Made by a program: the position numbers and the translations under genes. Below are positions 39,474 through 62,691 of a stretch of DNA of 64,000 bases, in pieces. Origin of the DNA: Escherichia coli. GTDB lineage: Bacteria; Pseudomonadota; Gammaproteobacteria; Enterobacterales; Enterobacteriaceae. Every line of letters begins with the position of its first letter. Position 1 is the first letter of the stretch. The notes beneath the pieces were generated by a model. That model saw only the letters and a program-made list of their open reading frames with translations. It searched no databases and was not told the origin of the DNA. The stretch lies in assembly GCF_030384885.1 (NCBI RefSeq), contig NZ_CP128613.1; one strand, 5' to 3'.

Positions 39474-40901
39474 CTAGCGCGACTGCTGATTATATTCATC
39501 ATCGCGTTGATAAGCTTCATCATTCGGCTGCTCCGGTACCGACCGCAGTCGATACTCTTCATCCTGGCTCACCGCTTGTTCAGCCAAATCCGGATTAATC
39601 TCGCGTTTAATTTCTACTCCTAAACCGCGAAACGCTTCTGCCTGCGCCAGCACATTTCCGCGACCTGAAGAGAGTTTTTTCATTGCCTGGCGATAGTTGT
39701 CCTGTGCTTTGTCCAGACTTTGACCAATCGCGGACATATCATCGACAAACAAGCGCATTTTGTCGTACAACTTGCTGGCGCGATCGGCTATTTTCTGGGC
39801 GTTACGACTTTGATGCTCATAGCGCCAGAGGTTGGCGATAGTGCGCAGCGCCACCAGCAGCGTGGTCGGGCTAACCAGCATGATATTGTTTTTCAACGCT
39901 TCGGTGATCAGCTCCGGCTGGCGGTCAAGCGCCAGTAAAAAAGCGGGTTCAACGGGAATAAACATCAGCACGTAATCCAGGGTTCGCAGCCCCGGCAGCT
40001 GTTGATAATCTTTGCGTCCCAGCAAACGGATATGGTTACGCACCGACGCGATATGTTCCTGTAGCGCGCTTTCGCGGGTGTAGTCGTCTTCTGCGTTGAA
40101 ATAGCGTTCATAGGCGACCAGTGTCATTTTTGCGTCGATCACCACATCTTTGCCCTGCGGCAACCGCACGATGACATCCGGCTGCATCCGCGAGCGGGCG
40201 TCATTTTCGATGCTGACCTGGGTTTCATATTCATACCCTTCACGCAGACCGGAAGCCTCCAGCACACGCGTCAATACTACCTCGCCCCAGTTGCCCTGGG
40301 TTTTATTGTCGCCTTTCAGCGCACGCGTCAGGTTGATCGCTTCCTGGGCCATTTGCGCGTTGAGCTGCTGGAGATTGCGTATTTCGTGAGTCAGGGTATG
40401 GCGTTCTTGTGCTTCTTTACCGAAACTGTCCTGAACCTGACGACGAAAACCGTCCAGTTGTTCACGTAGTGGCGACAACAGGCTGTTCAGACTCTGACGG
40501 TTTTGCTCATCAACCCGGCGATTGCTGTGCTCGAAAATACGGTTGGCGAGGTTTTCAAACTGCTCACTGAGGCGCTGTTCGCTGTTGATCATTTGGCGAA
40601 TTTTATCGTCAGCATGTTGCTGTACGGCCTCCATTCGCGTGGTGACTTCACGCAGATCCGCCTCCAGCGAGGTGTTAATGCTTTGCAGACTGCGCACTTC
40701 ATTATTGAGTAACTCGCACTCAGCACGCCAATGTTCGCTTTGGGTAATTTGTTGTTTTGCCGCACTTAACTCCGCGATCATCTCTTCACGTTCAGCGAAT
40801 TGCTCGGCTTTTTGCTGCGCATGCTGATAACTGGCAATCAGCCAGCCAATCGCCACGCTCACCAACGCAATAACTGCGTAAACCATGATTGAGATATCCA
40901 C
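39474..40901 (-). CDS. rmuC: DNA recombination protein RmuC
   Basis: RmuC family with N-terminal TM helix and long coiled-coil; start set at GTG (VDISIMVYAV...) giving about 475 aa, with an ATG alternative 5 codons downstream. Confidence 0.9.
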   Translation of the reverse strand: MDISIMVYAVIALVSVAIGWLIASYQHAQQKAEQFAEREEMIAELSAAKQQITQSEHWRAECELLNNEVRSLQSINTSLEADLREVTTRMEAVQQHADDKIRQMINSEQRLSEQFENLANRIFEHSNRRVDEQNRQSLNSLLSPLREQLDGFRRQVQDSFGKEAQERHTLTHEIRNLQQLNAQMAQEAINLTRALKGDNKTQGNWGEVVLTRVLEASGLREGYEYETQVSIENDARSRMQPDVIVRLPQGKDVVIDAKMTLVAYERYFNAEDDYTRESALQEHIASVRNHIRLLGRKDYQQLPGLRTLDYVLMFIPVEPAFLLALDRQPELITEALKNNIMLVSPTTLLVALRTIANLWRYEHQSRNAQKIADRASKLYDKMRLFVDDMSAIGQSLDKAQDNYRQAMKKLSSGRGNVLAQAEAFRGLGVEIKREINPDLAEQAVSQDEEYRLRSVPEQPNDEAYQRDDEYNQQSR

Positions 40902-41019
40902 AACGCCTCCAGCCTCATTACTTACCCGCACAAAATAGAATTGTGCTGTACAAACGTCCAGTTTGAAAGAAGTTTCCTGCGAGGCGCTACGCAAAACGAT
41001 CCTTAATTTTTATTATTTT

Positions 41020-41055
41020 ATCCCACAATATGAGACGTAGTTTATATTGTGGGAT
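41020..41055. promoter_or_regulatory. perfect inverted repeat, candidate operator upstream of the IclR-family gene
   Basis: ATCCCACAATAT (41020-41031), 12-bp spacer, ATATTGTGGGAT (41044-41055); about 60 bp upstream of the regulator start in the rmuC-divergent intergenic region. Confidence 0.4.
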
Positions 41056-41116
41056 ATATCACCTTTTCCCCACGTCATTATGTGGAACACTTCAGCAATA
41101 TCATCAGGAGAAACGT

Positions 41117-41884
41117 ATGGCAGATACCTCTTCAACCACCGCTGGCGCACAAACGTTATTACGCGGGCTGGCGGTTCTTAATGCTGTTTATAACGGCTGC
41201 CATGACCTGAAAAGTATCGGCGAGTTCACCGGCACGACCCGGAGCACAACCCATCGTTTAGTCACCGTTCTGGTGGAACAACGCTACCTGCGCCACGTCC
41301 CAACGCAGGGCTACCAACTGGGCGCCAAACTGATCGAATTCGGTGCCAGAGCGCTGGAAAGCACCTCGCTGTACGAAATTGCGCTGCCCGTTTTGCAGCG
41401 TCTGGCCCGTTACACCCTGGACACCGTGCATCTGGGGATCGTTGAAGGCGACGAAGTGCTGTATCTGGAGAAGATCAACAGTCAGCGTGGGCTGGAAATG
41501 CGCTCACGCCCAGGCCATCGCATGCCACTGGCAATCACCGGCATCGGCAAGGCATTGATCCTCAACCGAACAGAAGAAGAGTGGCGCACGCTGTTTAAGA
41601 CCTGTGGTGATGAAACAAAACTGGGCACATTTATTCAGAACATGCGTCGTTATGCCGCCAGTGGTTTTGCTTTTGATCTGGAAGAGAACGAGCCGACTAT
41701 CCGTTGCGTTGCAGCGCCGGTTTACAACGCCCGGGATGAAATTGTGGCGGCTATTTCTGTCGCCAGTACCACTACGTATATGTCACTGGCGCGTCTGGAA
41801 GAACTGGCACCTTACGTCAAATCCTGTGCAGAAGAGATATCCGCTGAACTGGGCTGGGGTAAGCACGTCCGCAAAAATAAATAA
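41117..41884 (+). CDS. IclR-family transcriptional regulator
   Basis: 255-aa ORF from MADTSS with SD AGGAGA; N-terminal wHTH (LRGLAVLNAV...IGEFTGTTRSTTHRLVTVLVEQRYL) and C-terminal IclR effector domain pattern. Confidence 0.85.
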   Translation: MADTSSTTAGAQTLLRGLAVLNAVYNGCHDLKSIGEFTGTTRSTTHRLVTVLVEQRYLRHVPTQGYQLGAKLIEFGARALESTSLYEIALPVLQRLARYTLDTVHLGIVEGDEVLYLEKINSQRGLEMRSRPGHRMPLAITGIGKALILNRTEEEWRTLFKTCGDETKLGTFIQNMRRYAASGFAFDLEENEPTIRCVAAPVYNARDEIVAAISVASTTTYMSLARLEELAPYVKSCAEEISAELGWGKHVRKNK

Positions 41885-41907
41885 ACCATGACTAAAGGAA
41901 ACGGCTA

Positions 41908-42912
41908 ATGTCGGGAAACACCTCATTTATTGCCCTGGACTGGGGAACGTCATCGCTTCGGGCATGGCGTTTTGGCGACTCACCAAATCCACAAGAAAAA
42001 CGTGAATTCCCGTGGGGGATCATGAAATTACCCTCCCAGGCAGCAACACGTGAGGACGCTTTCCACGATACGTTTTTACGTGTCTGCGGCGACTGGCTGG
42101 CACAATCCCCATGCCCGATTCTGGCTTGCGGCATGATCGGCAGTGCGCAAGGGTGGCAACCCGCAGCTTATTTACCTTGCCCGGTCACTCTCGAGGGTCT
42201 GGCAAAGCAGTTGACGCCTGTTATCTACCAGCAGCAGACAATGCTGCACATCATTCCCGGCGTGATTAAAGAAGGTGAAATGCCCGAAGTGATGCGTGGC
42301 GAAGAGACACAAATCTTCGGTGCTATCTCGATGGAACCGGCCCTGCAAAACGCGCTCCGCCAGGGTATGCCTGTGCTGATTGGCTTACCTGGCACACATG
42401 CGAAATGGGCGGTAGTTGAAAACAACACCATTACCGATTTTCGAACCTTTATGACAGGCGAGTTATTTGATGTTTTATCCCGCCATTCGATTCTCGGTGC
42501 CACCATGCGTTCGGGAGATGAACCGCACTGGGATGCCTTCGCCCACGGGCTGACAGCGGCACAAGAGCATCATCAGACCGGATTATTATCGACGCTGTTT
42601 TCGACCCGTTCGCGCCTGCTGACCAGTAATCTTACGCCGTCCTCACAGGGGGATTACCTTTCAGGATTACTGATAGGCCATGAATTATGCGGTCTGGCAT
42701 CCAGTTTGCTACGTGATTTACCCGCCACAACACCGATCGCCTTAATCGGTAGCGCCACTCTGAACAGCCGCTATTCACAAGCATTCAGCCACGTTTTTCC
42801 CGACAGACAGCTACACGCCATTCCTAATGCCACTGAACAGGGGTTATGGCGAATCGCCCACGCTGCCGGGCTACTCTCCACCAACGCCAGGGAATGTACT
42901 CATGCCATTTAA
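41908..42912 (+). CDS. 2-dehydro-3-deoxygalactonokinase-like sugar-acid kinase (DgoK family)
   Basis: 334-aa ORF sharing the motifs I recall from DgoK: ALDWGTSSLRAW, MRGEETQ, PGTHAKW, FRTFMTGELF. Confidence 0.85.
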   Translation: MSGNTSFIALDWGTSSLRAWRFGDSPNPQEKREFPWGIMKLPSQAATREDAFHDTFLRVCGDWLAQSPCPILACGMIGSAQGWQPAAYLPCPVTLEGLAKQLTPVIYQQQTMLHIIPGVIKEGEMPEVMRGEETQIFGAISMEPALQNALRQGMPVLIGLPGTHAKWAVVENNTITDFRTFMTGELFDVLSRHSILGATMRSGDEPHWDAFAHGLTAAQEHHQTGLLSTLFSTRSRLLTSNLTPSSQGDYLSGLLIGHELCGLASSLLRDLPATTPIALIGSATLNSRYSQAFSHVFPDRQLHAIPNATEQGLWRIAHAAGLLSTNARECTHAI

Positions 42913-43531
42913 TACGCTTTTGCAAAAAACCGGGTTAGTCGCCATTTTACGCGGCGTGAAACCGGATGAGATTGTCGCCATCGGTGAAAAGCTGTATGCC
43001 GCTGGATTTCGCCTGATTGAGATTCCCATGAACTCGCCGGAGCCGTTGCAAAGTATCAGTTTACTGCGCGACGCCCTGCCTAAGGACTGCCTGGTCGGAG
43101 CCGGAACGGTGCTTTCGGTGGAGCAAGTCGTCGCGGTTAAAGAGGCTGGAGGCCAGATTATCGTAATGCCGCATTGCGATACTGCGGTGATCCGTCGTGC
43201 CCGTGCGCTGGGTATGTATTGTGCGCCTGGCGTCGCTACGCCCACCGAAGCTTTTGCTGCCATTGAACATGGCGCCAATGCCATCAAGCTGTTCCCGGCT
43301 GAACAAATTACGCCTGAAGTCACCAAAGCCTGGCGTGCGGTTATTCCACAATCCGTTCCGATGTTACCGGTTGGCGGTATCACTCCAGACACAATGGCGC
43401 GTTATCTGAGCCACGGCGCAAACGGCTTTGGCCTCGGTTCTGCGCTATATCGCCCCGGCATGACGCCAGAGCAAGTCTATGAAAATGCAGTACTGTTTAT
43501 GAACGCATGGAACAATTTAAATAGCAAATAA
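42902..43531 (+). CDS. 2-dehydro-3-deoxy-6-phosphogalactonate / KDPG-type aldolase (DgoA/Eda family)
   Basis: About 209-aa ORF from MPFNTLLQKTGLVAILRG; class I aldolase TIM-barrel pattern (EIPMNSP, GAGTV, KLFPA, GGIT). Start overlaps the kinase 3' end by 11 bp. Confidence 0.85.
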   Translation: MPFNTLLQKTGLVAILRGVKPDEIVAIGEKLYAAGFRLIEIPMNSPEPLQSISLLRDALPKDCLVGAGTVLSVEQVVAVKEAGGQIIVMPHCDTAVIRRARALGMYCAPGVATPTEAFAAIEHGANAIKLFPAEQITPEVTKAWRAVIPQSVPMLPVGGITPDTMARYLSHGANGFGLGSALYRPGMTPEQVYENAVLFMNAWNNLNSK

Positions 43532-43555
43532 CTGATAAATAAGGATATAAAAGCA

Positions 43556-44530
43556 ATGATAAAACATCTTACCTTACCGAAAAAAATGGCTGCAATGGTA
43601 CTTCTTGCCGGCGCTGCCCTCAGCACTGCGCCTGTGCAGGCGGCCTCCTGGCCAACCAAACAGATCGAGTTAGTCGTACCCTACGCGGCCGGAGGCGGTA
43701 CGGATCTGGTTGCCCGTGCCTTTGCTGATGCCGCCAAAAACCATTTGCCCGTCAGCATCGGGGTTATCAATAAACCTGGCGGTGGCGGCGCTATCGGCCT
43801 GAGTGAAATCGCCGCTGCCCGCCCTAACGGTTACAAAATGGGTTTAGGCACGGTTGAACTGACCACCCTTCCCAGTCTCGGAATGGTGCGTTTTAAAACC
43901 AGCGACTTTAAACCCATTGCCCGTCTGAATGCGGATCCTGCGGCTATCACCGTCCGTGCCGATGCACCGTGGAATAGCTATGAAGAATTTATGACTTACG
44001 CCAAAGCGAATCCCGGAAAAGTACGCATTGGTAACTCAGGCACCGGAGCAATCTGGCATCTGGCGGCAGCTGCACTGGAAGACAAAACGGGCGTGAAGTT
44101 TTCTCATGTCCCATATGACGGCGCAGCCCCTGCCATTACAGGCCTGTTAGGCGGGCATATTGAAGCGGTTTCCGTAAGCCCAGGTGAAGTTATCAATCAT
44201 GTGAAAGGCGGCAAGCTGAAGACACTGGTAGTGATGGCGGATGAACGTATGAAAACCATGCCTGACGTCCCGACGTTAAAAGAGAAAGGCGTTGATCTCT
44301 CCATCGGCACCTGGCGCGGCCTGATTGTGTCGCAAAAAACGCCGCAGGATGTGGTTGATGTTCTGGCTAAGGCCGCAAAAGAGACGGCTGAAGAGCCTGC
44401 ATTCCAGGATGCTCTGCAAAAGTTGAATCTCAACTATGCATGGCTTGATGGTGCCAGCTTCCAGACCCAAATCAACGAACAGGAAAAGTACTTTGACGAG
44501 TTACTAACTCGGCTGGGCTTGAAAAAATAA
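43556..44530 (+). CDS. tripartite tricarboxylate transporter substrate-binding protein (TctC/Bug family)
   Basis: 324-aa ORF with signal peptide (MIKHLTLPKKMAAMVLLAGAALSTAPVQA) and the TctC-type motifs ...VVPYAAGGGTD..., ...NKPGGGGAIG.... Confidence 0.85.
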   Translation: MIKHLTLPKKMAAMVLLAGAALSTAPVQAASWPTKQIELVVPYAAGGGTDLVARAFADAAKNHLPVSIGVINKPGGGGAIGLSEIAAARPNGYKMGLGTVELTTLPSLGMVRFKTSDFKPIARLNADPAAITVRADAPWNSYEEFMTYAKANPGKVRIGNSGTGAIWHLAAAALEDKTGVKFSHVPYDGAAPAITGLLGGHIEAVSVSPGEVINHVKGGKLKTLVVMADERMKTMPDVPTLKEKGVDLSIGTWRGLIVSQKTPQDVVDVLAKAAKETAEEPAFQDALQKLNLNYAWLDGASFQTQINEQEKYFDELLTRLGLKK

Positions 44531-44546
44531 TCCCGAGGTACGGTCG

Positions 44547-45053
44547 ATGAACACAAAACAGTCTGTTGCTCAACTCGCCGTACCGCACCGCAAGCGCTTT
44601 TCATCCACTGTGGTGGTGGCGCTGTTACTTTGTGTGGTTGCTGGCGCGGTGATAATTAATGCCGCTGATTTTCCAGCAACTGCCATTGAAACGGATCCCG
44701 GTGCAAGTGCCTTCCCTACTTTCTATGCCTGCGCTCTGATTGTGCTCGCTGTCTTACTGGTGATACGCGATCTTTTGCTGGCAAAACCAGTCCCTTGCGC
44801 CAACGCACAGGAAAAACCGGCATTCAGGAAAACGGCAACGGGAATTGCGGCAACCGCGTTTTATATTGTGGCGATGAGCTACTGCGGTTATCTCATTACT
44901 ACTCCTGTTTTCCTCATCGTCATTATGACGTTGATGGGCTACAGGCGATGGGTACTCACACCGGGTATTGCGCTGCTGTTAACGGCAATCCTCTGGTTGC
45001 TGTTTGTCGAAGCGTTACAGGTGCCATTGCCTGTCGGCACATTTTTCGAATAA
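44547..45053 (+). CDS. tripartite tricarboxylate transporter small membrane subunit (TctB-like)
   Basis: 168-aa hydrophobic protein with about 4 TM segments, positioned between tctC-like and tctA-like genes. Confidence 0.75.
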   Translation: MNTKQSVAQLAVPHRKRFSSTVVVALLLCVVAGAVIINAADFPATAIETDPGASAFPTFYACALIVLAVLLVIRDLLLAKPVPCANAQEKPAFRKTATGIAATAFYIVAMSYCGYLITTPVFLIVIMTLMGYRRWVLTPGIALLLTAILWLLFVEALQVPLPVGTFFE

Positions 45054-45065
45054 CAGGGGCCTGCA

Positions 45066-46556
45066 ATGTTTGAAAGTGAACTTTTAACTCAGGGGTTTTC
45101 GACATTACTCAGTAATCCTCAGGCGCTGCTGTTTGCCACGTTTGGAGTGATACTGGGTATTATGATTGGCGCTCTGCCTGGCCTGACAGCGACCATGGGT
45201 GTGGCGATTTTGCTGCCTTTCACCTACGGCATGGAGCCTGTTTCTGGCTTGTTGATGATTTGCGGTGTCTTTTTTGGTGGTGTGTATGGTGGTTCTATCA
45301 CCGCAATTTTGCTCAAAATTCCCGGTACGCCTGCCGCCGCTGCCACCGCCATTGACGGTTATGAGTTAACGAAGCAGGGAAAAGCCGGGCTGGCATTAAG
45401 TGCCGCCACGTTCTCTTCTTTTAGCGGTGGAACGCTCAGCATTATCGTATTGATGTTTCTCTCTCCGGTACTTGCCAGTTGGGCGTTGAAATTTAGTGCC
45501 TCGGAGTCCTTCGCCCTGGCAACCTTCGGACTAAGTATTATTGCCAGTATTTCCGGTGAGTCACTGATTAAAGGGCTGATTGCCGGGGTTGGCGGATTAC
45601 TGATCGCAACGATAGGCCTCGATCCGATGGGCGGTTTTCCACGCTTTACGGGCGGGTTTGTGGAACTGATGAATGTGCCATTTATCCCGGTGATGATTGG
45701 TCTGTTTGCTGCTTCAGAAGCGTTCCGTTCTATGGAACAAAATCAGCATATTCGTCAGAGCGCGAACGTGGCTATCGGCAGTCTGTTACTGCCCTGGCAA
45801 ACGCTACGCCGCATCGCATTAACCATTTTGCGCTCATCAGGATTAGGGGTTTTTATCGGCATGATCCCCGGTGCGGGGGCAGATATTGCAGCTTTTGTTG
45901 CCTATAACGAAACTCGTCGTTTCAGTAAGACGCCTGAAAACTTTGGTAAGGGTGAGATTAAGGCGGTGGCCTCCTGTGAGGCAGGCGCGAATGGCTGCAC
46001 CGGTGGCGCATTGTTACCTATGCTGACGTTGGGGATCCCAGGCGATGCGGTAACTGCCATCATGCTGGGCGCGTTAACGTTACAAGGGATGCAGCCAGGC
46101 CCACTGATGTTTACCGACCACGGCGATATGGTTTATACGCTGTTTGTCGGCATGATCTTTTGTTACTTCATGCTGCTAGTTCTTGGACTGCTCTCTTTGA
46201 AAGTCATCGGTAACGTGGTGAAGATCCCCGGCAATATTCTCACGCCGATGATCCTCGCACTTTGTGTGGTCGGGACTTATGCGTTGAACAATAGCCTGTT
46301 TGATGTTGGCATTATGCTGATTGCAGGCGTGGTGGGCTATTTCATGCAAAAAGGGGGGTATCCGGCATCACCCGTAGTGCTGGCATTGATTATGGGGCCA
46401 ATGGCGGAAAGTAATTTTCGCCGTGCGCTGTCGCTTTCTGGTGGGTCACTCGACTTTCTGTATACCCGACCGATAACCCTGGCATTGCTGACACTGGCAG
46501 CCTTTACGCTACTGACGCCAATAATACGCAAAATTATGCGCTTACGGCGTCAGTAA
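45066..46556 (+). CDS. tripartite tricarboxylate transporter large permease (TctA family)
   Basis: 496-aa polytopic membrane protein with Gly-rich TM segments typical of TctA (GALPGLTATMGVAILLPFTYGM, GGSITAILLKIPGTPAAAAT). Confidence 0.9.
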   Translation: MFESELLTQGFSTLLSNPQALLFATFGVILGIMIGALPGLTATMGVAILLPFTYGMEPVSGLLMICGVFFGGVYGGSITAILLKIPGTPAAAATAIDGYELTKQGKAGLALSAATFSSFSGGTLSIIVLMFLSPVLASWALKFSASESFALATFGLSIIASISGESLIKGLIAGVGGLLIATIGLDPMGGFPRFTGGFVELMNVPFIPVMIGLFAASEAFRSMEQNQHIRQSANVAIGSLLLPWQTLRRIALTILRSSGLGVFIGMIPGAGADIAAFVAYNETRRFSKTPENFGKGEIKAVASCEAGANGCTGGALLPMLTLGIPGDAVTAIMLGALTLQGMQPGPLMFTDHGDMVYTLFVGMIFCYFMLLVLGLLSLKVIGNVVKIPGNILTPMILALCVVGTYALNNSLFDVGIMLIAGVVGYFMQKGGYPASPVVLALIMGPMAESNFRRALSLSGGSLDFLYTRPITLALLTLAAFTLLTPIIRKIMRLRRQ

Positions 46557-46589
46557 TTGATATCGCTCCCCGACGTTGGGGAGTATGAG

Positions 46590-46740
46590 ACTGATGACAA
46601 ACGCTAAATTGCCTGATGCGCTGCGCTTATCAGGCCTACCACAGAAATGCAATATATTGAATTTGCATGCTTTTGTAGGCCGGGTAAGGCGATCACGCCG
46701 CATCCGGCATGAACAAAGCACACGTTAACAACAATCGGAA
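46590..46740. repeat. REP/BIME palindromic repeat cluster
   Basis: GCCTGATGCGCTGCGCTTATCAGGCCTAC, TGTAGGCCGGGTAAGGCGATCACGCCGCATCCGGC units between the transporter gene and udp. Confidence 0.55.
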
Positions 46741-46766
46741 TGCTCCCCTAAGCCAGGGAGCTTTTT

Positions 46767-47531
46767 TTATTTCAGCAGACGACGCGCCGCTTCCACCACG
46801 ATTTTCACCGCCTGGCTTTCGGTTTGTTTCATCGTCTCAGCATTCGGGATCTCTTGTTGGGTACGATTGACGATAACGCCCGCCACCATACCGGCACGAA
46901 GGCCCTGGCTTGCACACATGGTCAGCAGGGTTGCAGATTCCATTTCATAGTTCATTACGCCCATCGCCTGCCACTCTTCCATAGAACCTTTAAAGTGACG
47001 GACTACGCGACCAGAGTAAGTATCGTAACGTTCCTGACCCGGGTAGAAGGTATCAGAAGAAGCCGTCACACCAACGTGAGTGGTGGCACCAATTGACTTC
47101 GCCGCTTCAACCAGCGCGGTCGTACATTCGAAATCTGCGACAGCCGGGAACTCCAGCGGAGCGAAGTGCAGGCTCGCGCCATCCAGACGAACAGACGCCG
47201 TGGTCACCAGCACATCGCCGACATTGATATGCGGCTGGATAGCGCCCGTTGTACCGATACGCAGGAAGGTGCGAATGCCCAGCTGTGCCAGCTCTTCAAC
47301 CGCAATAGAGGTAGACGGGCCGCCGATACCGGTAGAGCAGACGATAACAGGTTTACCATCCAGCTCTGCACGCCAGGTGGTGAATTCGCGGTGAGATGCC
47401 AGCTTAACCGGCTTATCCATCAGCGCGGCGATCTTTTCCACACGATCCGGGTCGCCAGGGACGATGGCAAGCGTAGCCCCTTGTAAATCGTTTTTAGTGA
47501 GGCCGAGATGAAAAACATCAGACTTGGACAT
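46767..47531 (-). CDS. udp: uridine phosphorylase
   Basis: 253-aa ORF from [19 protein letters not shown]; PNP/UDP phosphorylase family. Confidence 0.96.
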
Positions 47532-48996: not shown

Positions 48997-50145
48997 ATGA
49001 GTGATATTATCTACCTGACCATAACCGGAGAACAACACGGATGTATTTCCTCTCGTTGTGGAACGAGCACATCAATAGGTAATCGCTGGCAGATTGGTCA
49101 TGAAGATGAAATCTTCGCATTCTCGCTCTCTAATAGTATTACGAATACAGGAAAAGGGTCACATTTGCATGGCCTTAGTTTCTGTAAGTTGATTGACAAA
49201 AGCTCCCCGTTACTTATTAACGCTATTAACAATAACGAGCAGTTGTTCATGGAGTTTGACTTCTATCGGATCAATAGATTTGGTCGATGGGAGAAATATT
49301 ACAACATTCAACTCCGCGGCGCGCTCTTATCAGCAATCAATCACCTGTTTACGGAGAACAATCTGGATACAGAAACCATCACTGTCAGTTATGAATATAT
49401 ACTCTCCAGGCATCTGATTGCTAATACTGAATTTAGTTATTTGGCATTTCCCGATAACTACAATCGTCTGTTTATACCACGGCCAAAAACTAAAGATGAT
49501 AATGGCCTCAAAACACTCAATAGTAAAGCTGTTGGCAGACTGCTTGCTGCTGGCGGCATATACAATGGGAATATCGAAGGATTCAGGGAAACAGCAAACA
49601 AGTTGGGGGGAGATGCACCTGCTGGTTACGATCAAGTTATGGATAACAAAGGGTTACTCATCGCTGGTGCTTCAATAGTTGCTGGAGCAGTTCTGGGGAG
49701 AATGAGACTCCCTGATTTGGAATCACTTGAGCATTTCGGAGCCAGAGGAGCAGTATCAGGAAGACCATTTAATCCCGACCTTGCCGGTGGTCCAATAGAA
49801 AATCTGACGACAGATGGCGTAACAATCAACAGGGAAGGTATCGCTATTGTTGAAAAACACATAGCCAGATTTGGTCATGACCCTGTAAATGAAGTGATGA
49901 TCAATAGACTGAAAGACATTGAGAAAGGAAAAATCCCCCCAGAACAAGTAGATCTTAACTTCTATACTCATGAATGTCGGGAATATCAGCGTTACTGTAA
50001 TCTTGGTTGGGAAACAGGACAACCTGATGGTGACGCAGGCTATGCACTCTGGAATCATACGCATACTGCTACTCTAGAAGATTATAAACTTAAGGGAGAA
50101 CTTAATGACTTATACCACCAGGACGCACTTGACTATGATAACTGA
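48997..50145 (+). CDS. Hcp (T6SS tube protein, TssD) fused to a C-terminal extension; candidate evolved-Hcp toxin effector
   Basis: 382-aa ORF. The N-terminal ~160 aa follow the Hcp pattern (ITGEQHG...NRW..GHEDEIFAFS...KLIDKSSPLLINAI...EFDFYRIN) as I recall it; then a Gly-rich linker and a ~130-aa His/Cys-containing C-terminal region. Low GC and AT-rich upstream region. Confidence 0.8.
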   Translation: MSDIIYLTITGEQHGCISSRCGTSTSIGNRWQIGHEDEIFAFSLSNSITNTGKGSHLHGLSFCKLIDKSSPLLINAINNNEQLFMEFDFYRINRFGRWEKYYNIQLRGALLSAINHLFTENNLDTETITVSYEYILSRHLIANTEFSYLAFPDNYNRLFIPRPKTKDDNGLKTLNSKAVGRLLAAGGIYNGNIEGFRETANKLGGDAPAGYDQVMDNKGLLIAGASIVAGAVLGRMRLPDLESLEHFGARGAVSGRPFNPDLAGGPIENLTTDGVTINREGIAIVEKHIARFGHDPVNEVMINRLKDIEKGKIPPEQVDLNFYTHECREYQRYCNLGWETGQPDGDAGYALWNHTHTATLEDYKLKGELNDLYHQDALDYDN

Positions 50146-50380
50146 AACTGAAATTAACATACTGAAAGTTATGGCTGAGAAAGATATAAACTGGAACTGG
50201 ATGAATCTCGATCGCACACTATCTATAAGGCAAATTCCAGGATTCGGTAATGTTGTTAACATTGTTAACAAATTAGCTAACGAGGGTTTGGTTATTATTG
50301 AGGATAGCGGACATAAGTCTATGCCTCACTACCACGTTACTGATAAGGGATACAATCTCGTGAAAAGTGAGAATAAATAA
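50135..50380 (+). CDS. small protein downstream of the Hcp fusion; candidate immunity protein (alternative: small wHTH-like protein)
   Basis: 81-aa ORF (MITETEINILKVMAEKD...), or 91 aa from the upstream ATG at 50105. Its start overlaps the Hcp-fusion stop (ATGATAACTGA), the arrangement seen in toxin/immunity pairs. Confidence 0.5.
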   Translation: MITETEINILKVMAEKDINWNWMNLDRTLSIRQIPGFGNVVNIVNKLANEGLVIIEDSGHKSMPHYHVTDKGYNLVKSENK

Positions 50381-61749: not shown

Positions 61750-61800
61750 TAACGTAAAAGCAGGTAAACTGCTTTTACCCATAAAAAATGAGTTTTTCCA

Positions 61801-62691
61801 ATGGATATCAAACAAACGCGGCAGGGCGTATTACTCGCTCTTGCCGCTTATTTTATTTGGGGTATTGCGCCAGCGTACTTCAAGCTGATTTACTACGTGC
61901 CCGCCGATGAGATCCTGACGCATCGCGTGATCTGGTCGTTTTTCTTTATGGTGGTGCTGATGAGCATTTGCCGCCAGTGGTCCTATTTAAAAACGCTGAT
62001 TCAGACACCACAGAAAATTTTTATGCTGGCAGTCTCTGCCGTGCTGATTGGTGGCAACTGGCTACTGTTTATCTGGGCGGTGAACAATCACCATATGCTG
62101 GAAGCGAGCCTTGGTTACTTTATTAACCCGCTGGTGAACATTGTGCTGGGGATGATTTTCCTCGGCGAGCGATTCCGCCGGATGCAATGGCTGGCGGTGA
62201 TTCTGGCGATATGTGGTGTATTGGTCCAGCTCTGGACTTTTGGTTCGCTGCCAATCATCGCGCTGGGGCTGGCGTTTAGTTTTGCCTTCTACGGCCTGGT
62301 ACGCAAGAAAATTGCCGTTGAAGCGCAAACCGGCATGTTAATCGAAACCATGTGGCTGCTGCCCGTGGCGGCGATTTACCTGTTTGCTATTGCCGACAGC
62401 TCAACCAGCCATATGGGGCAAAACCCGATGTCGCTGAATTTACTGCTGATCGCCGCCGGTATTGTCACCACCGTGCCACTGTTATGTTTTACCGCAGCAG
62501 CTACACGCTTACGACTCTCAACATTAGGCTTTTTCCAGTACATTGGGCCGACGCTAATGTTCCTGTTGGCAGTGACGTTTTATGGTGAAAAACCGGGAGC
62601 CGATAAGATGGTGACTTTCGCCTTTATTTGGGTAGCGCTGGCAATTTTTGTGATGGATGCGATTTATACGCAGCGTAGAACGTCCAAATAA
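61801..62691 (+). CDS. rarD: DMT-superfamily transporter RarD
   Basis: 296-aa ten-TM EamA-type protein (MDIKQTRQGVLLALAAYFIWGIAPAYFKL). Confidence 0.95.
   Translation: MDIKQTRQGVLLALAAYFIWGIAPAYFKLIYYVPADEILTHRVIWSFFFMVVLMSICRQWSYLKTLIQTPQKIFMLAVSAVLIGGNWLLFIWAVNNHHMLEASLGYFINPLVNIVLGMIFLGERFRRMQWLAVILAICGVLVQLWTFGSLPIIALGLAFSFAFYGLVRKKIAVEAQTGMLIETMWLLPVAAIYLFAIADSSTSHMGQNPMSLNLLLIAAGIVTTVPLLCFTAAATRLRLSTLGFFQYIGPTLMFLLAVTFYGEKPGADKMVTFAFIWVALAIFVMDAIYTQRRTSK

What the first reader, a model, noticed from the sequence alone, without database searches (positions are those of the whole stretch)
41908..43531. Kinase-aldolase pair without a dehydratase implies the transported substrate is already a 2-keto-3-deoxy acid
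The De Ley-Doudoroff-type galactonate pathway uses dehydratase (DgoD), kinase (DgoK) and aldolase (DgoA). Here only kinase and aldolase homologues are present, and the transporter is a carboxylate-type TTT system rather than an MFS DgoT. The simplest reading is direct uptake of a 2-dehydro-3-deoxy-aldonate (for example KDGal or a related keto-deoxy acid), phosphorylation, and cleavage to pyruvate plus a triose phosphate. The kinase start codon region also overlaps the aldolase start by 11 bp, indicating coupled translation.
Basis: inference. Interest (0 to 1): 0.55.

Follow-up and report, generated by a model that had tools for sequence, protein, structure and literature searches.

The report
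Keto-deoxy sugar-acid uptake and cleavage operon
This is a six-gene accessory operon, present in about a quarter of E. coli genomes including Nissle 1917. It pairs a carboxylate importer with a kinase and an aldolase, and most probably lets the cell take up and split a ready-made 2-keto-3-deoxy sugar acid, although the substrate has never been tested.

Summary
Window 41908-43531 holds a DgoK-family kinase and a DgoA-type aldolase that overlap by 11 nt (kinase stop over aldolase start, not start over start). They sit in an operon iclR-kinase-aldolase-tctCBA between rmuC and udp.

- **No linked dehydratase.** None lies in the operon or anywhere in the 64-kb window. The same genome does carry an intact dgoRKADT, including dgoD, about 158 kb away, so absence from the operon alone proves nothing.
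- **Binding-protein clade.** The binding protein belongs to a distinct clade with pocket signature Y/F43-T163-A165-D/E188. In 14 organisms across four classes, this clade never sits in one cluster with an aldonate dehydratase.
- **What it is paired with instead.** Three unrelated ways of splitting 2-keto-3-deoxy acids: DGOK kinase plus DgoA-type aldolase, PfkB kinase plus Eda-type aldolase, or a GarL/HpaI-type aldolase alone. Accessory genes include DEH-reductase-like enzymes.
- **Sister clade.** Binding proteins with signature N163-S165-Q188 sit beside DgoD or IlvD-type dehydratases.

D-galactonate uptake with DgoD acting from elsewhere remains a serious rival. I rate it a new variant of a known kind, of moderate interest.

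The parts
40997..46768 (.). Extent of the accessory segment relative to E. coli K-12, where udp and rmuC are only 140 bp apart
   Evidence: K-12 annotation. A blastn of the K-12 junction against the window places the homology breaks at about 40996 and 46769.
41019..41056 (.). Perfect 13-nt inverted repeat TATCCCACAATAT / ATATTGTGGGATA with a 12-nt spacer. It is a candidate operator for the IclR-family regulator (inferred).
   Evidence: the repeat finder. TCCCA...TGGGA palindromes recur upstream of the orthologous iclR in Buttiauxella, Klebsiella and Brenneria.
41117..41884 (+). IclR-family transcriptional regulator, 255 aa, first gene of the operon
   Evidence: The best NCBIfam hits are BhcR (140.6 bits) and KdgR (126.5 bits), both below their cutoffs. 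PGAP annotates it as IclR family. The ortholog carries Pfam HTH_IclR plus IclR_C. AGGAG lies 6 nt before the ATG.
41908..42912 (+). DgoK-family (ASKHA) 2-keto-3-deoxy-hexonate kinase, 334 aa
   Evidence: Pfam PF05035 at 1.6e-89 over model positions 1-281/281. PDB 3r1x (2-oxo-3-deoxygalactonate kinase) at 7.9e-37. It is 34% identical to E. coli DgoK and 49% to the Burkholderia cluster kinase. dN/dS against Nissle is 0.24.
42902..43531 (+). DgoA-type class I pyruvate aldolase, 209 aa. Its start overlaps the kinase stop by 11 nt.
   Evidence: NF006600 at 322.9 bits (cutoff 207), against eda TIGR01182 at 134.7 bits (cutoff 156). PDB 2v81 at 9.5e-50. The Schiff-base Lys (IKLFP), the Glu (IEIP) and the DgoA-type Val (PVGG) are all present. 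dN/dS is 0.05.
43556..44530 (+). TctC/Bug-family periplasmic solute-binding protein, 324 aa. The signal peptide ends at about residue 29, judged by eye.
   Evidence: PDB 4x9t (Polaromonas TctC, apo, ligand unknown) at 5.6e-100, and 25hk (Vibrio TTT-C, binds unsaturated alginate oligosaccharides) at 2.4e-64. Pocket signature Y43, T163, A165, D188.
44547..45053 (+). TctB small membrane subunit, 168 aa
   Evidence: PGAP annotation. The ortholog carries Pfam PF07331.
45066..46556 (+). TctA large permease subunit, 496 aa
   Evidence: PGAP annotation. The ortholog carries Pfam PF01970. It is 90% identical to Buttiauxella and 71% to Rhodoferax.
46632..46761 (.). REP-like elements followed by a hairpin with a T-run, lying between the convergent tctA and udp genes
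   Evidence: Sub-threshold Rfam hits to the REP-derived naRNA4 and ES036. Terminator-like site at 46742-46761.

Best explanation
The operon is a self-contained salvage module for a preformed 2-keto-3-deoxy-hexonate.

- **Uptake.** The periplasmic TctC protein captures the acid and TctBA moves it across the inner membrane.
- **Catabolism.** The DgoK-family kinase phosphorylates C6. The DgoA-type class I aldolase then cleaves the product into pyruvate and D-glyceraldehyde 3-phosphate.
- **Regulation.** The IclR-family protein encoded by the first gene probably represses the operon at the inverted repeat at 41019-41056 until the keto-deoxy acid, or its phosphate, binds.

By enzyme family the most likely substrate is 2-keto-3-deoxy-D-galactonate (KDGal). 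In logic the operon is the 'galacto' counterpart of the KdgR-KdgT-KdgK-Eda system for KDG, packed into one operon.

Shown: gene identities, catalytic residues, purifying selection, synteny and the comparative gene-neighbourhood pattern. Inferred: the ligand, the effector, the operator, and the source of the substrate (probably keto-deoxy acids released by other microbes).
For: 1. **Family assignments.** The kinase and aldolase assignments are strong and the catalytic residues are intact.
2. **Under selection.** All six genes show dN/dS of 0.02-0.25 between the window strain and Nissle 1917. The kinase-aldolase segment covers at least 80% of the query in 1454 of the 1456 E. coli genomes that carry it.
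3. **An old, stable unit.** The same six genes, with no dehydratase, sit at the same rmuC-udp site in Buttiauxella and Klebsiella. TctC and TctA are 82-90% identical there, like the flanking core genes. The cassette also occurs in Brenneria, Enterobacter and Uliginosibacterium.
4. **A distinct binding-protein clade.**
   - All 120 best homologs share T/S163, A165 and D/E188 and form a clade in an NJ tree.
   - Positions 43 and 163/165 lie in the two 'pincer' loops and the docking-aromatic position described for TctC proteins (PMC5812351).
   - The sister clade (A/T43, N163, S165, Q188) sits beside DgoA-DgoD-DgoK (L028) or IlvD/Edd dehydratase plus DgoK/DgoA (L024, L042).
5. **Partners in the cassette clade.** The transporter is combined with three non-homologous ways of consuming 2-keto-3-deoxy acids:
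   - DGOK kinase plus DgoA-type aldolase (Proteobacteria);
   - PfkB KDG/KDGal-kinase-like enzyme plus Eda-type aldolase with PTGG (Brevibacillus);
   - a GarL/HpaI/RhmA-type class II aldolase with no kinase (betaproteobacterium L013).
6. **Accessory genes also act on keto-deoxy acids.**
   - An SDR 66-70% identical to Sphingomonas DEH reductases A1-R and A1-R' occurs in Rhodoferax, a MAG and Azospirillum.
   - An iron-ADH occurs with a second DGOK in Enterobacter.
   - KduD, above its NCBIfam cutoff, lies beside a basal relative (L030).
7. **No dehydratase in the cluster.** This holds in all 14 organisms examined.
8. **Closest ligand-defined relative.** That protein binds lyase-generated unsaturated uronate oligomers (PMC13390454).
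Against: - No ligand has been measured for any member of this clade. The closest structure, 4x9t, is apo with an unknown ligand (PMC5812351).
- The genome has DgoD, so imported D-galactonate could be dehydrated by an enzyme encoded elsewhere.
- Homologous IclR-DgoK-DgoA clusters in Burkholderia and Pararobbsia plainly need an unlinked dehydratase.
- Rhodoferax and a MAG add an SMP-30/gluconolactonase-family gene after tctA. That hints at an aldonolactone-to-aldonate step.
- A published genomic reconstruction predicted D-galactonate as the substrate of an IclR + dgoK + TTT locus in Salinivirga (PMC5507952).
- DEH reductase makes KDG (erythro), whereas the cassette aldolases are the KDPGal (threo) type. 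The accessory reductase is therefore not neatly explained.
- I know of no documented environmental pool of free KDGal.
- The pocket-position argument rests on alignment to loops described in the literature, not on a liganded structure.
Confidence: 0.55

Rival explanations
1. The operon is a high-affinity D-galactonate (or other aldonate) uptake system. The TTT system imports the aldonate, DgoD from the canonical dgo operon (or another dehydratase) converts it to KDGal, and the cassette kinase and aldolase duplicate or supplement DgoK and DgoA.
For: - dgoRKADT is intact in the same genome.
- Binding proteins 52-57% identical to this one lie in operons with DgoD or IlvD-type dehydratases plus DgoK/DgoA.
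- Burkholderia-type IclR-DgoK-DgoA clusters lack a linked dehydratase although they need one.
- An SGL lactonase lies in the Rhodoferax and MAG cassettes.
- The prediction by Leyn et al. 2017 (PMC5507952) fits this reading.
Against: - Imported galactonate would derepress dgoRKADT, which already supplies a kinase and an aldolase. Yet the cassette copies are under purifying selection and have been kept for a long time in several genera.
- The dehydratase-linked binding proteins form a different clade with different residues in the ligand loops.
- In the cassette clade no dehydratase lies in the cluster in any of 14 organisms, while the catabolic partners vary among three unrelated consumers of 2-keto-3-deoxy acids.
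Confidence: 0.27
2. The true substrate is an aldehyde-level 4-deoxy-5-hexosulose uronate (DEH or DKI), released when other microbes degrade alginate, pectin or glycosaminoglycans with lyases. After uptake it is reduced to a 2-keto-3-deoxy-hexonate, then phosphorylated and cleaved. E. coli would supply the reductase from elsewhere in the genome.
For: - An SDR 66-70% identical to DEH reductases A1-R and A1-R' lies divergently beside the cassette in three organisms.
- An iron-ADH (aldehyde-reductase type) takes that position in Enterobacter.
- Azospirillum has KduI, an SDR, a cupin and KdgT a few kb away.
- The nearest ligand-defined homolog binds unsaturated alginate products.
Against: - The enterobacterial cassettes carry no reductase.
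- By my own stereochemical derivation, DEH reduces to KDG (4S) and DKI reduces to 2-keto-3-deoxy-L-galactonate. Neither is the 4R substrate expected for the DgoA-type (PVGG) aldolase.
- A1-R is reported to be specific for DEH (PMC8778563).
Confidence: 0.1
3. The cassette is a decaying or silent remnant with no current role in E. coli.
For: - It is absent from about 73% of complete E. coli genomes, including K-12.
- The kinase and TctB evolve fast.
- The simple scan found no consensus sigma-70 promoter on the + strand.
Against: - All six reading frames are intact.
- dN/dS is 0.02-0.25.
- The kinase-aldolase segment covers at least 80% of the query in 1454 of 1456 carrier genomes.
- A conserved palindrome lies upstream.
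Confidence: 0.03

Closest known systems
E. coli dgoRKADT (D-galactonate branch of the De Ley-Doudoroff pathway)
   Same: It has a DgoK-family kinase (34% identical) and a DgoA-type aldolase (47% identical) with the same catalytic Lys, Glu and Val. The two genes are adjacent and overlap. The products would be pyruvate plus glyceraldehyde 3-phosphate (G3P).
   Different: The cassette has no DgoD. It uses an IclR-family regulator instead of the GntR-family DgoR, and a TTT binding-protein-dependent importer instead of the MFS DgoT. The kinase is a 'long' form of 334 aa against 292 aa.
KdgR regulon of enterobacteria (kdgT, kdgK, eda): uptake and cleavage of preformed 2-keto-3-deoxy-D-gluconate
   Same: The proposed logic is the same: import a ready-made keto-deoxy acid, phosphorylate it, cleave it, all under an IclR-family repressor. 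KdgR is the second-best NCBIfam hit of the regulator. The description of the KdgR regulon is from established knowledge, not tested here.
   Different: The protein families differ for the transporter (KdgT), the kinase (PfkB) and the stereochemical type of the aldolase (Eda, PTGG). The KdgR regulon genes are scattered around the chromosome, whereas these form one operon.
Vibrio sp. C42 TTT of the alginate utilisation locus (PDB 25HK; PMC13390454)
   Same: It has the same transporter family. Its binding protein matches at 2.4e-64 and shares G48, T49, D50, P128, G210, T252 and R254. It handles sugar-acid products rather than tricarboxylates.
   Different: It binds unsaturated oligosaccharides and has an enlarged pocket. 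It is linked to alginate lyases, DehR, KdgK and Eda, and its second pincer loop is different.
Burkholderia/Pararobbsia IclR-DgoK-DgoA galactose/arabinose oxidation clusters
   Same: These have the closest kinase relatives outside Enterobacterales (46-49% identical). They share the same IclR-kinase-aldolase core and also lack a dehydratase in the cluster.
   Different: They are fed by a sugar ABC transporter, two SDR dehydrogenases, a lactonase and an epimerase. They therefore start from a neutral sugar and must use an unlinked dehydratase.
Predicted GalR (IclR) + dgoK + TTT D-galactonate locus of Salinivirga fredricksonii HL-109 (Leyn et al. 2017, PMC5507952)
   Same: It combines the same families: an IclR-family regulator, DgoK and a TTT transporter.
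   Different: The authors describe it as part of a De Ley-Doudoroff locus and predicted it to take up galactonate. I could not examine its binding-protein signature.

Membership tests
dgo operon / D-galactonate catabolic system | Galactonate dehydratase DgoD (enolase superfamily) encoded with the kinase and aldolase | tested here: not met
   No dehydratase lies in the cassette or the 64-kb window. A phmmer search with E. coli DgoD and an IlvD/Edd reference found none in the orthologous cassettes. DgoD is present elsewhere in the genome.
dgo operon / D-galactonate catabolic system | DgoK-family 2-keto-3-deoxygalactonate kinase | tested here: met
   PF05035 at 1.6e-89 over the full model. PDB 3r1x at 7.9e-37. 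Substrate specificity was not tested.
dgo operon / D-galactonate catabolic system | KDPGal aldolase with the Schiff-base Lys and the DgoA-type residue at the stereochemistry-linked position | tested here: met
   NF006600 at 322.9 bits, above its 207 cutoff, while the eda model falls below its cutoff. The motifs IKLFP, IEIP and PVGG align with K126, E37 and V154 of E. coli DgoA. The role of V154 is recalled from the literature, not verified here.
dgo operon / D-galactonate catabolic system | MFS transporter DgoT and GntR-family repressor DgoR | tested here: not met
   The transporter is TctCBA and the regulator is IclR family.
Tripartite tricarboxylate transporter (TTT) | Three components: a TctC/Bug binding protein with the P-[FY]-x-A-G-G-x-x-D loop, a small TctB and a large TctA permease | tested here: met
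   TctC homologs in the PDB score down to 5.6e-100. The motif P42-Y-A-A-G-G-G-T-D50 is present, and the motif is described in PMC5812351. TctB and TctA follow from the PGAP annotation and from Pfam PF07331 and PF01970 in orthologs.
Tripartite tricarboxylate transporter (TTT) | Transport of a carboxylate ligand, shown experimentally | not testable with these tools
   No ligand data exist for this clade. The closest structure, 4x9t, is apo.
IclR/KdgR-type repressors of keto-deoxy-acid catabolism | HTH_IclR plus IclR_C domains, and a palindromic operator near its own operon | tested here: inconclusive
   The family-level match is clear, but every equivalog model falls below its cutoff. A perfect 13-nt inverted repeat with conserved TCCCA/TGGGA half-sites lies upstream. 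Binding and effector were not tested.
Alginate/pectin unsaturated-uronate pathway (DehR or KduID, KdgK, Eda) | A reductase or isomerase acting on DEH or DKI, encoded with the transporter | tested here: not met
   None is present in the E. coli, Buttiauxella, Klebsiella or Brenneria cassettes. One is present beside the cassette in Rhodoferax, a MAG and Azospirillum.

The most novel reading that the evidence does not exclude
The Y/F43-T163-A165-D/E188 clade of TctC proteins is an unrecognised family of transporters for preformed 2-keto-3-deoxy (4-hydroxy-2-oxo) sugar acids. It spans Enterobacterales, Burkholderiales, Rhodospirillales, Hyphomicrobiales and Bacillales. Its members would let cells scavenge intermediates leaked by neighbours that degrade polysaccharides or oxidise sugars. 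In E. coli B2-type strains (Nissle 1917, ATCC 25922, IHE3034) the cassette would then be a cross-feeding trait that contributes to gut fitness.
Probability: 0.35. Interest if true: 0.6.

Novelty: new variant of a known kind. Interest (0 to 1): 0.45.

Why it matters
The cassette is carried by about 27% of complete E. coli genomes. Carriers include the probiotic Nissle 1917, the reference strain ATCC 25922 and the meningitis isolate IHE3034. Its function is annotated only by family names.

If it takes up a ready-made keto-deoxy sugar acid, three things follow:
- The known substrate range of TTT transporters would widen.
- It would be a compact example of a pathway shortened to its last two steps for cross-feeding.
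- A strain-specific nutrient niche in the gut would become testable.

The binding-protein signature found here (T163/A165/D188 against N163/S165/Q188) also gives a concrete handle for predicting the ligands of hundreds of uncharacterised TctC proteins.

Tried and rejected
- **Papers on this E. coli cassette.** Four searches found no experimental study. They turned up only the Salinivirga prediction and the Vibrio TTT paper.
- **NCBIfam on the kinase and the Tct proteins.** No family matched. The kinase's family therefore rests on Pfam and PDB.
- **Ad hoc gene finding in high-GC loci.** It was noisy. One 'gene' in L013 proved to be a shadow ORF, and the real gene on the other strand is a GarL/HpaI-type aldolase.
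- **Rfam scan of the cassette.** It found only sub-threshold REP-derived matches and no riboswitch.
- **Simple sigma-70 scan.** No consensus promoter lies on the + strand upstream of iclR.
- **The 284-aa IclR start at 41030.** I rejected it. It lies inside the inverted repeat and lacks the AGGAG that precedes 41117, which is also the PGAP start.
- **The 234-aa aldolase start at 42827.** I rejected it. Orthologs are 208-216 aa, and PGAP and the alignments start at 42902.
- **Direct reduction of pectin- or GAG-derived DKI to D-KDGal.** I considered this and rejected it. A Fischer-projection derivation gives the L-threo enantiomer.
Full report
**What is there.** The window is a 100% match to the chromosome of E. 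coli 2013C-4282. Between rmuC (minus strand, ending at 40901) and udp (minus strand, 46767-47531) lie six co-directional genes:

- an IclR-family regulator, 41117-41884
- a DgoK-family kinase, 41908-42912
- a DgoA-type aldolase, 42902-43531
- tctC, 43556-44530
- tctB, 44547-45053
- tctA, 45066-46556

The kinase matches Pfam DGOK over the whole model at 1.6e-89 and the solved 2-oxo-3-deoxygalactonate kinase 3r1x at 7.9e-37. The aldolase scores 322.9 bits on the KDPGal-aldolase model NF006600 (cutoff 207) and falls below the cutoff of the eda model. It aligns with E. coli DgoA (2v81, 9.5e-50). It keeps the Schiff-base lysine, the catalytic glutamate and the DgoA-type valine in PVGG.

The 11-nt overlap exists, with the ATG at 42902 and the TAA at 42910-42912. 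It joins the kinase stop to the aldolase start. It is absent in Klebsiella and Brenneria, and the canonical dgoK/dgoA pair overlaps by 17 nt. It is an ordinary feature.

**Is a dehydratase really missing?** None is annotated in the cassette or anywhere in the 64-kb window. The same chromosome carries an intact dgoR-dgoK-dgoA-dgoD-dgoT operon about 158 kb away. The closest kinase relatives outside Enterobacterales sit in Burkholderia and Pararobbsia. There IclR-DgoK-DgoA is followed by sugar dehydrogenases, a lactonase, an epimerase and a sugar ABC transporter, again with no dehydratase. Those clusters must use an unlinked dehydratase.

**Population and history.** The cassette is in 1457 of 5426 complete E. 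coli genomes, including Nissle 1917, IHE3034 and the 'Seattle 1946' strain. K-12 lacks it, with udp and rmuC 140 bp apart, and the indel spans 40997-46768. The same six genes occupy the same rmuC-udp site in Buttiauxella and two Klebsiella species.

| Protein(s) | Identity across these syntenic copies |
|---|---|
| TctC, TctA | 82-90% |
| Flanking core genes | 79-97% |
| IclR | 66-72% |
| Aldolase | 57-69% |
| TctB | 49-58% |
| Kinase | 49-59% |

They suggest long residence with repeated loss rather than recent import. All six genes are under purifying selection between the window strain and Nissle (dN/dS 0.02-0.25).

A perfect 13-nt inverted repeat lies upstream of iclR (41019-41031 and 41044-41056). 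Related TCCCA...TGGGA palindromes occur in Buttiauxella, Klebsiella and Brenneria. I take this as the candidate operator, which is an inference.

**What the binding protein says.** Its best solved relative is the Polaromonas TctC 4x9t at 5.6e-100. That structure is apo with an unknown ligand. Next is Vibrio TTT-C (25HK, 2.4e-64), which binds unsaturated alginate degradation products.

All 120 best database homologs (at least 58% identical) share T/S163, A165 and D/E188. They come from Enterobacterales, Burkholderiales, Rhodocyclales, Rhodospirillales, Hyphomicrobiales and Bacillales. Positions 163 and 165 lie in the second 'pincer' loop, and position 43 is the docking aromatic described for TctC proteins (PMC5812351).

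Relatives 52-57% identical form a sister clade in an NJ tree. They carry A/T43, N163, S165 and Q188. That sister clade is the one found beside dehydratases:

- DgoA-DgoD-DgoK-TctC in a Comamonadaceae MAG (L028)
- an IlvD/Edd-family dehydratase, close to L-arabinonate dehydratase, plus DgoK/DgoA in Variovorax sp. KK3 (L024) and in a Burkholderiales MAG (L042)

**Neighbourhoods of the cassette clade.** In 14 organisms no dehydratase lies in the cluster. Brenneria has a separate IlvD/MFS/aldehyde-dehydrogenase cluster 4-10 kb upstream, on the other strand and beyond three unrelated genes.

The catabolic partners vary, but every one consumes a 2-keto-3-deoxy acid:

- **DGOK kinase plus DgoA-type aldolase** in the proteobacterial cassettes.
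- **PfkB kinase plus Eda-type aldolase** in Brevibacillus. The kinase's best hit is the bifunctional KDG/KDGal kinase family, and the aldolase has PTGG and exceeds the eda cutoff.
- **A GarL/HpaI/RhmA-type class II aldolase with no kinase** in a betaproteobacterium (L013).

The accessory genes point the same way:

- Rhodoferax, a soil MAG and Azospirillum carry, divergently from iclR, an SDR that is full-length and 66-70% identical by eye to the Sphingomonas DEH reductases A1-R and A1-R' (E 1e-103 to 1e-106). The three SDRs are 61-84% identical to one another.
- Enterobacter hormaechei has an iron-ADH and a second DGOK paralog in that position.
- A basal Bacillota relative has KduD, above its NCBIfam cutoff, followed by IclR, a DGOK-like gene and TctC.

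Non-orthologous replacement of the downstream enzymes around a conserved transporter, with no dehydratase, is the strongest argument that the ligand class is a preformed 2-keto-3-deoxy acid.

**What does not fit.**

- DEH reductase yields KDG (PMC8778563). By my own Fischer-projection derivation, DKI would reduce to 2-keto-3-deoxy-L-galactonate. Neither is the 4R substrate expected of a DgoA-type aldolase.
- Rhodoferax and the MAG append an SMP-30/gluconolactonase-family gene. That would make most sense upstream of an aldonate.
- Leyn et al. predicted D-galactonate for an IclR + dgoK + TTT locus (PMC5507952).
- I could not survey whole genomes for unlinked dehydratases.

**Verdict.** D-galactonate uptake with DgoD acting in trans (about 0.27) and uptake of DEH/DKI-type acids (about 0.10) remain open.

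In how it would work, the operon resembles the KdgR-KdgT-KdgK-Eda system for KDG. By family it shares only the kinase and aldolase with the dgo operon and fails that operon's dehydratase, transporter and regulator criteria. I rate it a new variant of a known kind, of moderate interest, with a clear and cheap experimental test.

Noticed in passing
window 48997-50380: A frameshifted tssD (type VI secretion Hcp-like) gene plus a small hypothetical ORF lie between ysgA and metE, in a low-GC stretch (0.44). In K-12, ysgA and metE are only 39 bp apart, so this is a second small accessory insertion next to the cassette.
   Followed up: partly
window 41908-46556 compared with L002 and L003: Within the same syntenic cassette, the kinase (49-59%), TctB (49-58%), the aldolase (57-69%) and IclR (66-72%) diverge far faster among Escherichia, Buttiauxella and Klebsiella than TctC and TctA (82-90%). 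The kinase also has the second-highest dN/dS (0.24, just behind tctB at 0.25) within E. coli.
   Followed up: partly
L049 5512-6288 (-), L012 5067-6020 (-), L050 5360-6157 (-): SDRs about 66-70% identical to the Sphingomonas DEH reductases A1-R and A1-R' lie divergently beside KDPGal-type cassettes in Rhodoferax, a MAG and Azospirillum. The expected product (KDG, erythro) does not match the aldolase type (threo). This is unexplained.
   Followed up: partly
L051 4079-6258 (-): Enterobacter hormaechei carries a second, divergent DGOK-family paralog (331 aa, no NCBIfam match) paired with an iron-containing alcohol dehydrogenase, next to its cassette. A second IclR gene follows tctA.
   Followed up: no
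L049 12184-13098 and L012 13178-14086: An SMP-30/gluconolactonase-family gene directly follows tctA in two cassettes. Its best PDB hits are regucalcin at 3e-27, and its role beside a carboxylate importer is unclear.
   Followed up: partly
L013 8900-14202: In a betaproteobacterium, a TTT system of the same binding-protein clade is preceded by a GarL/HpaI/RhmA-type class II aldolase. It is followed by a PRK12394 metallo-hydrolase and sits under a LacI-family 'GntR' regulator. There is no kinase.
   Followed up: partly
window 46600-46720: E. coli-type REP/BIME palindromes (sub-threshold Rfam matches to naRNA4 and ES036) lie between tctA and udp, inside the segment that K-12 lacks.
   Followed up: no
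L055 8125-8280: In Cohaesibacter the kinase gene of the cassette is reduced to a 51-codon fragment, while iclR, the aldolase and tctCBA remain.
   Followed up: no
window 61784-62163 and 40357-40523: PGAP marks yigF (61784-62163) and a small hypothetical gene (40357-40523) as frameshifted pseudogenes in this strain. The window coordinates were converted from the record positions.
   Followed up: no
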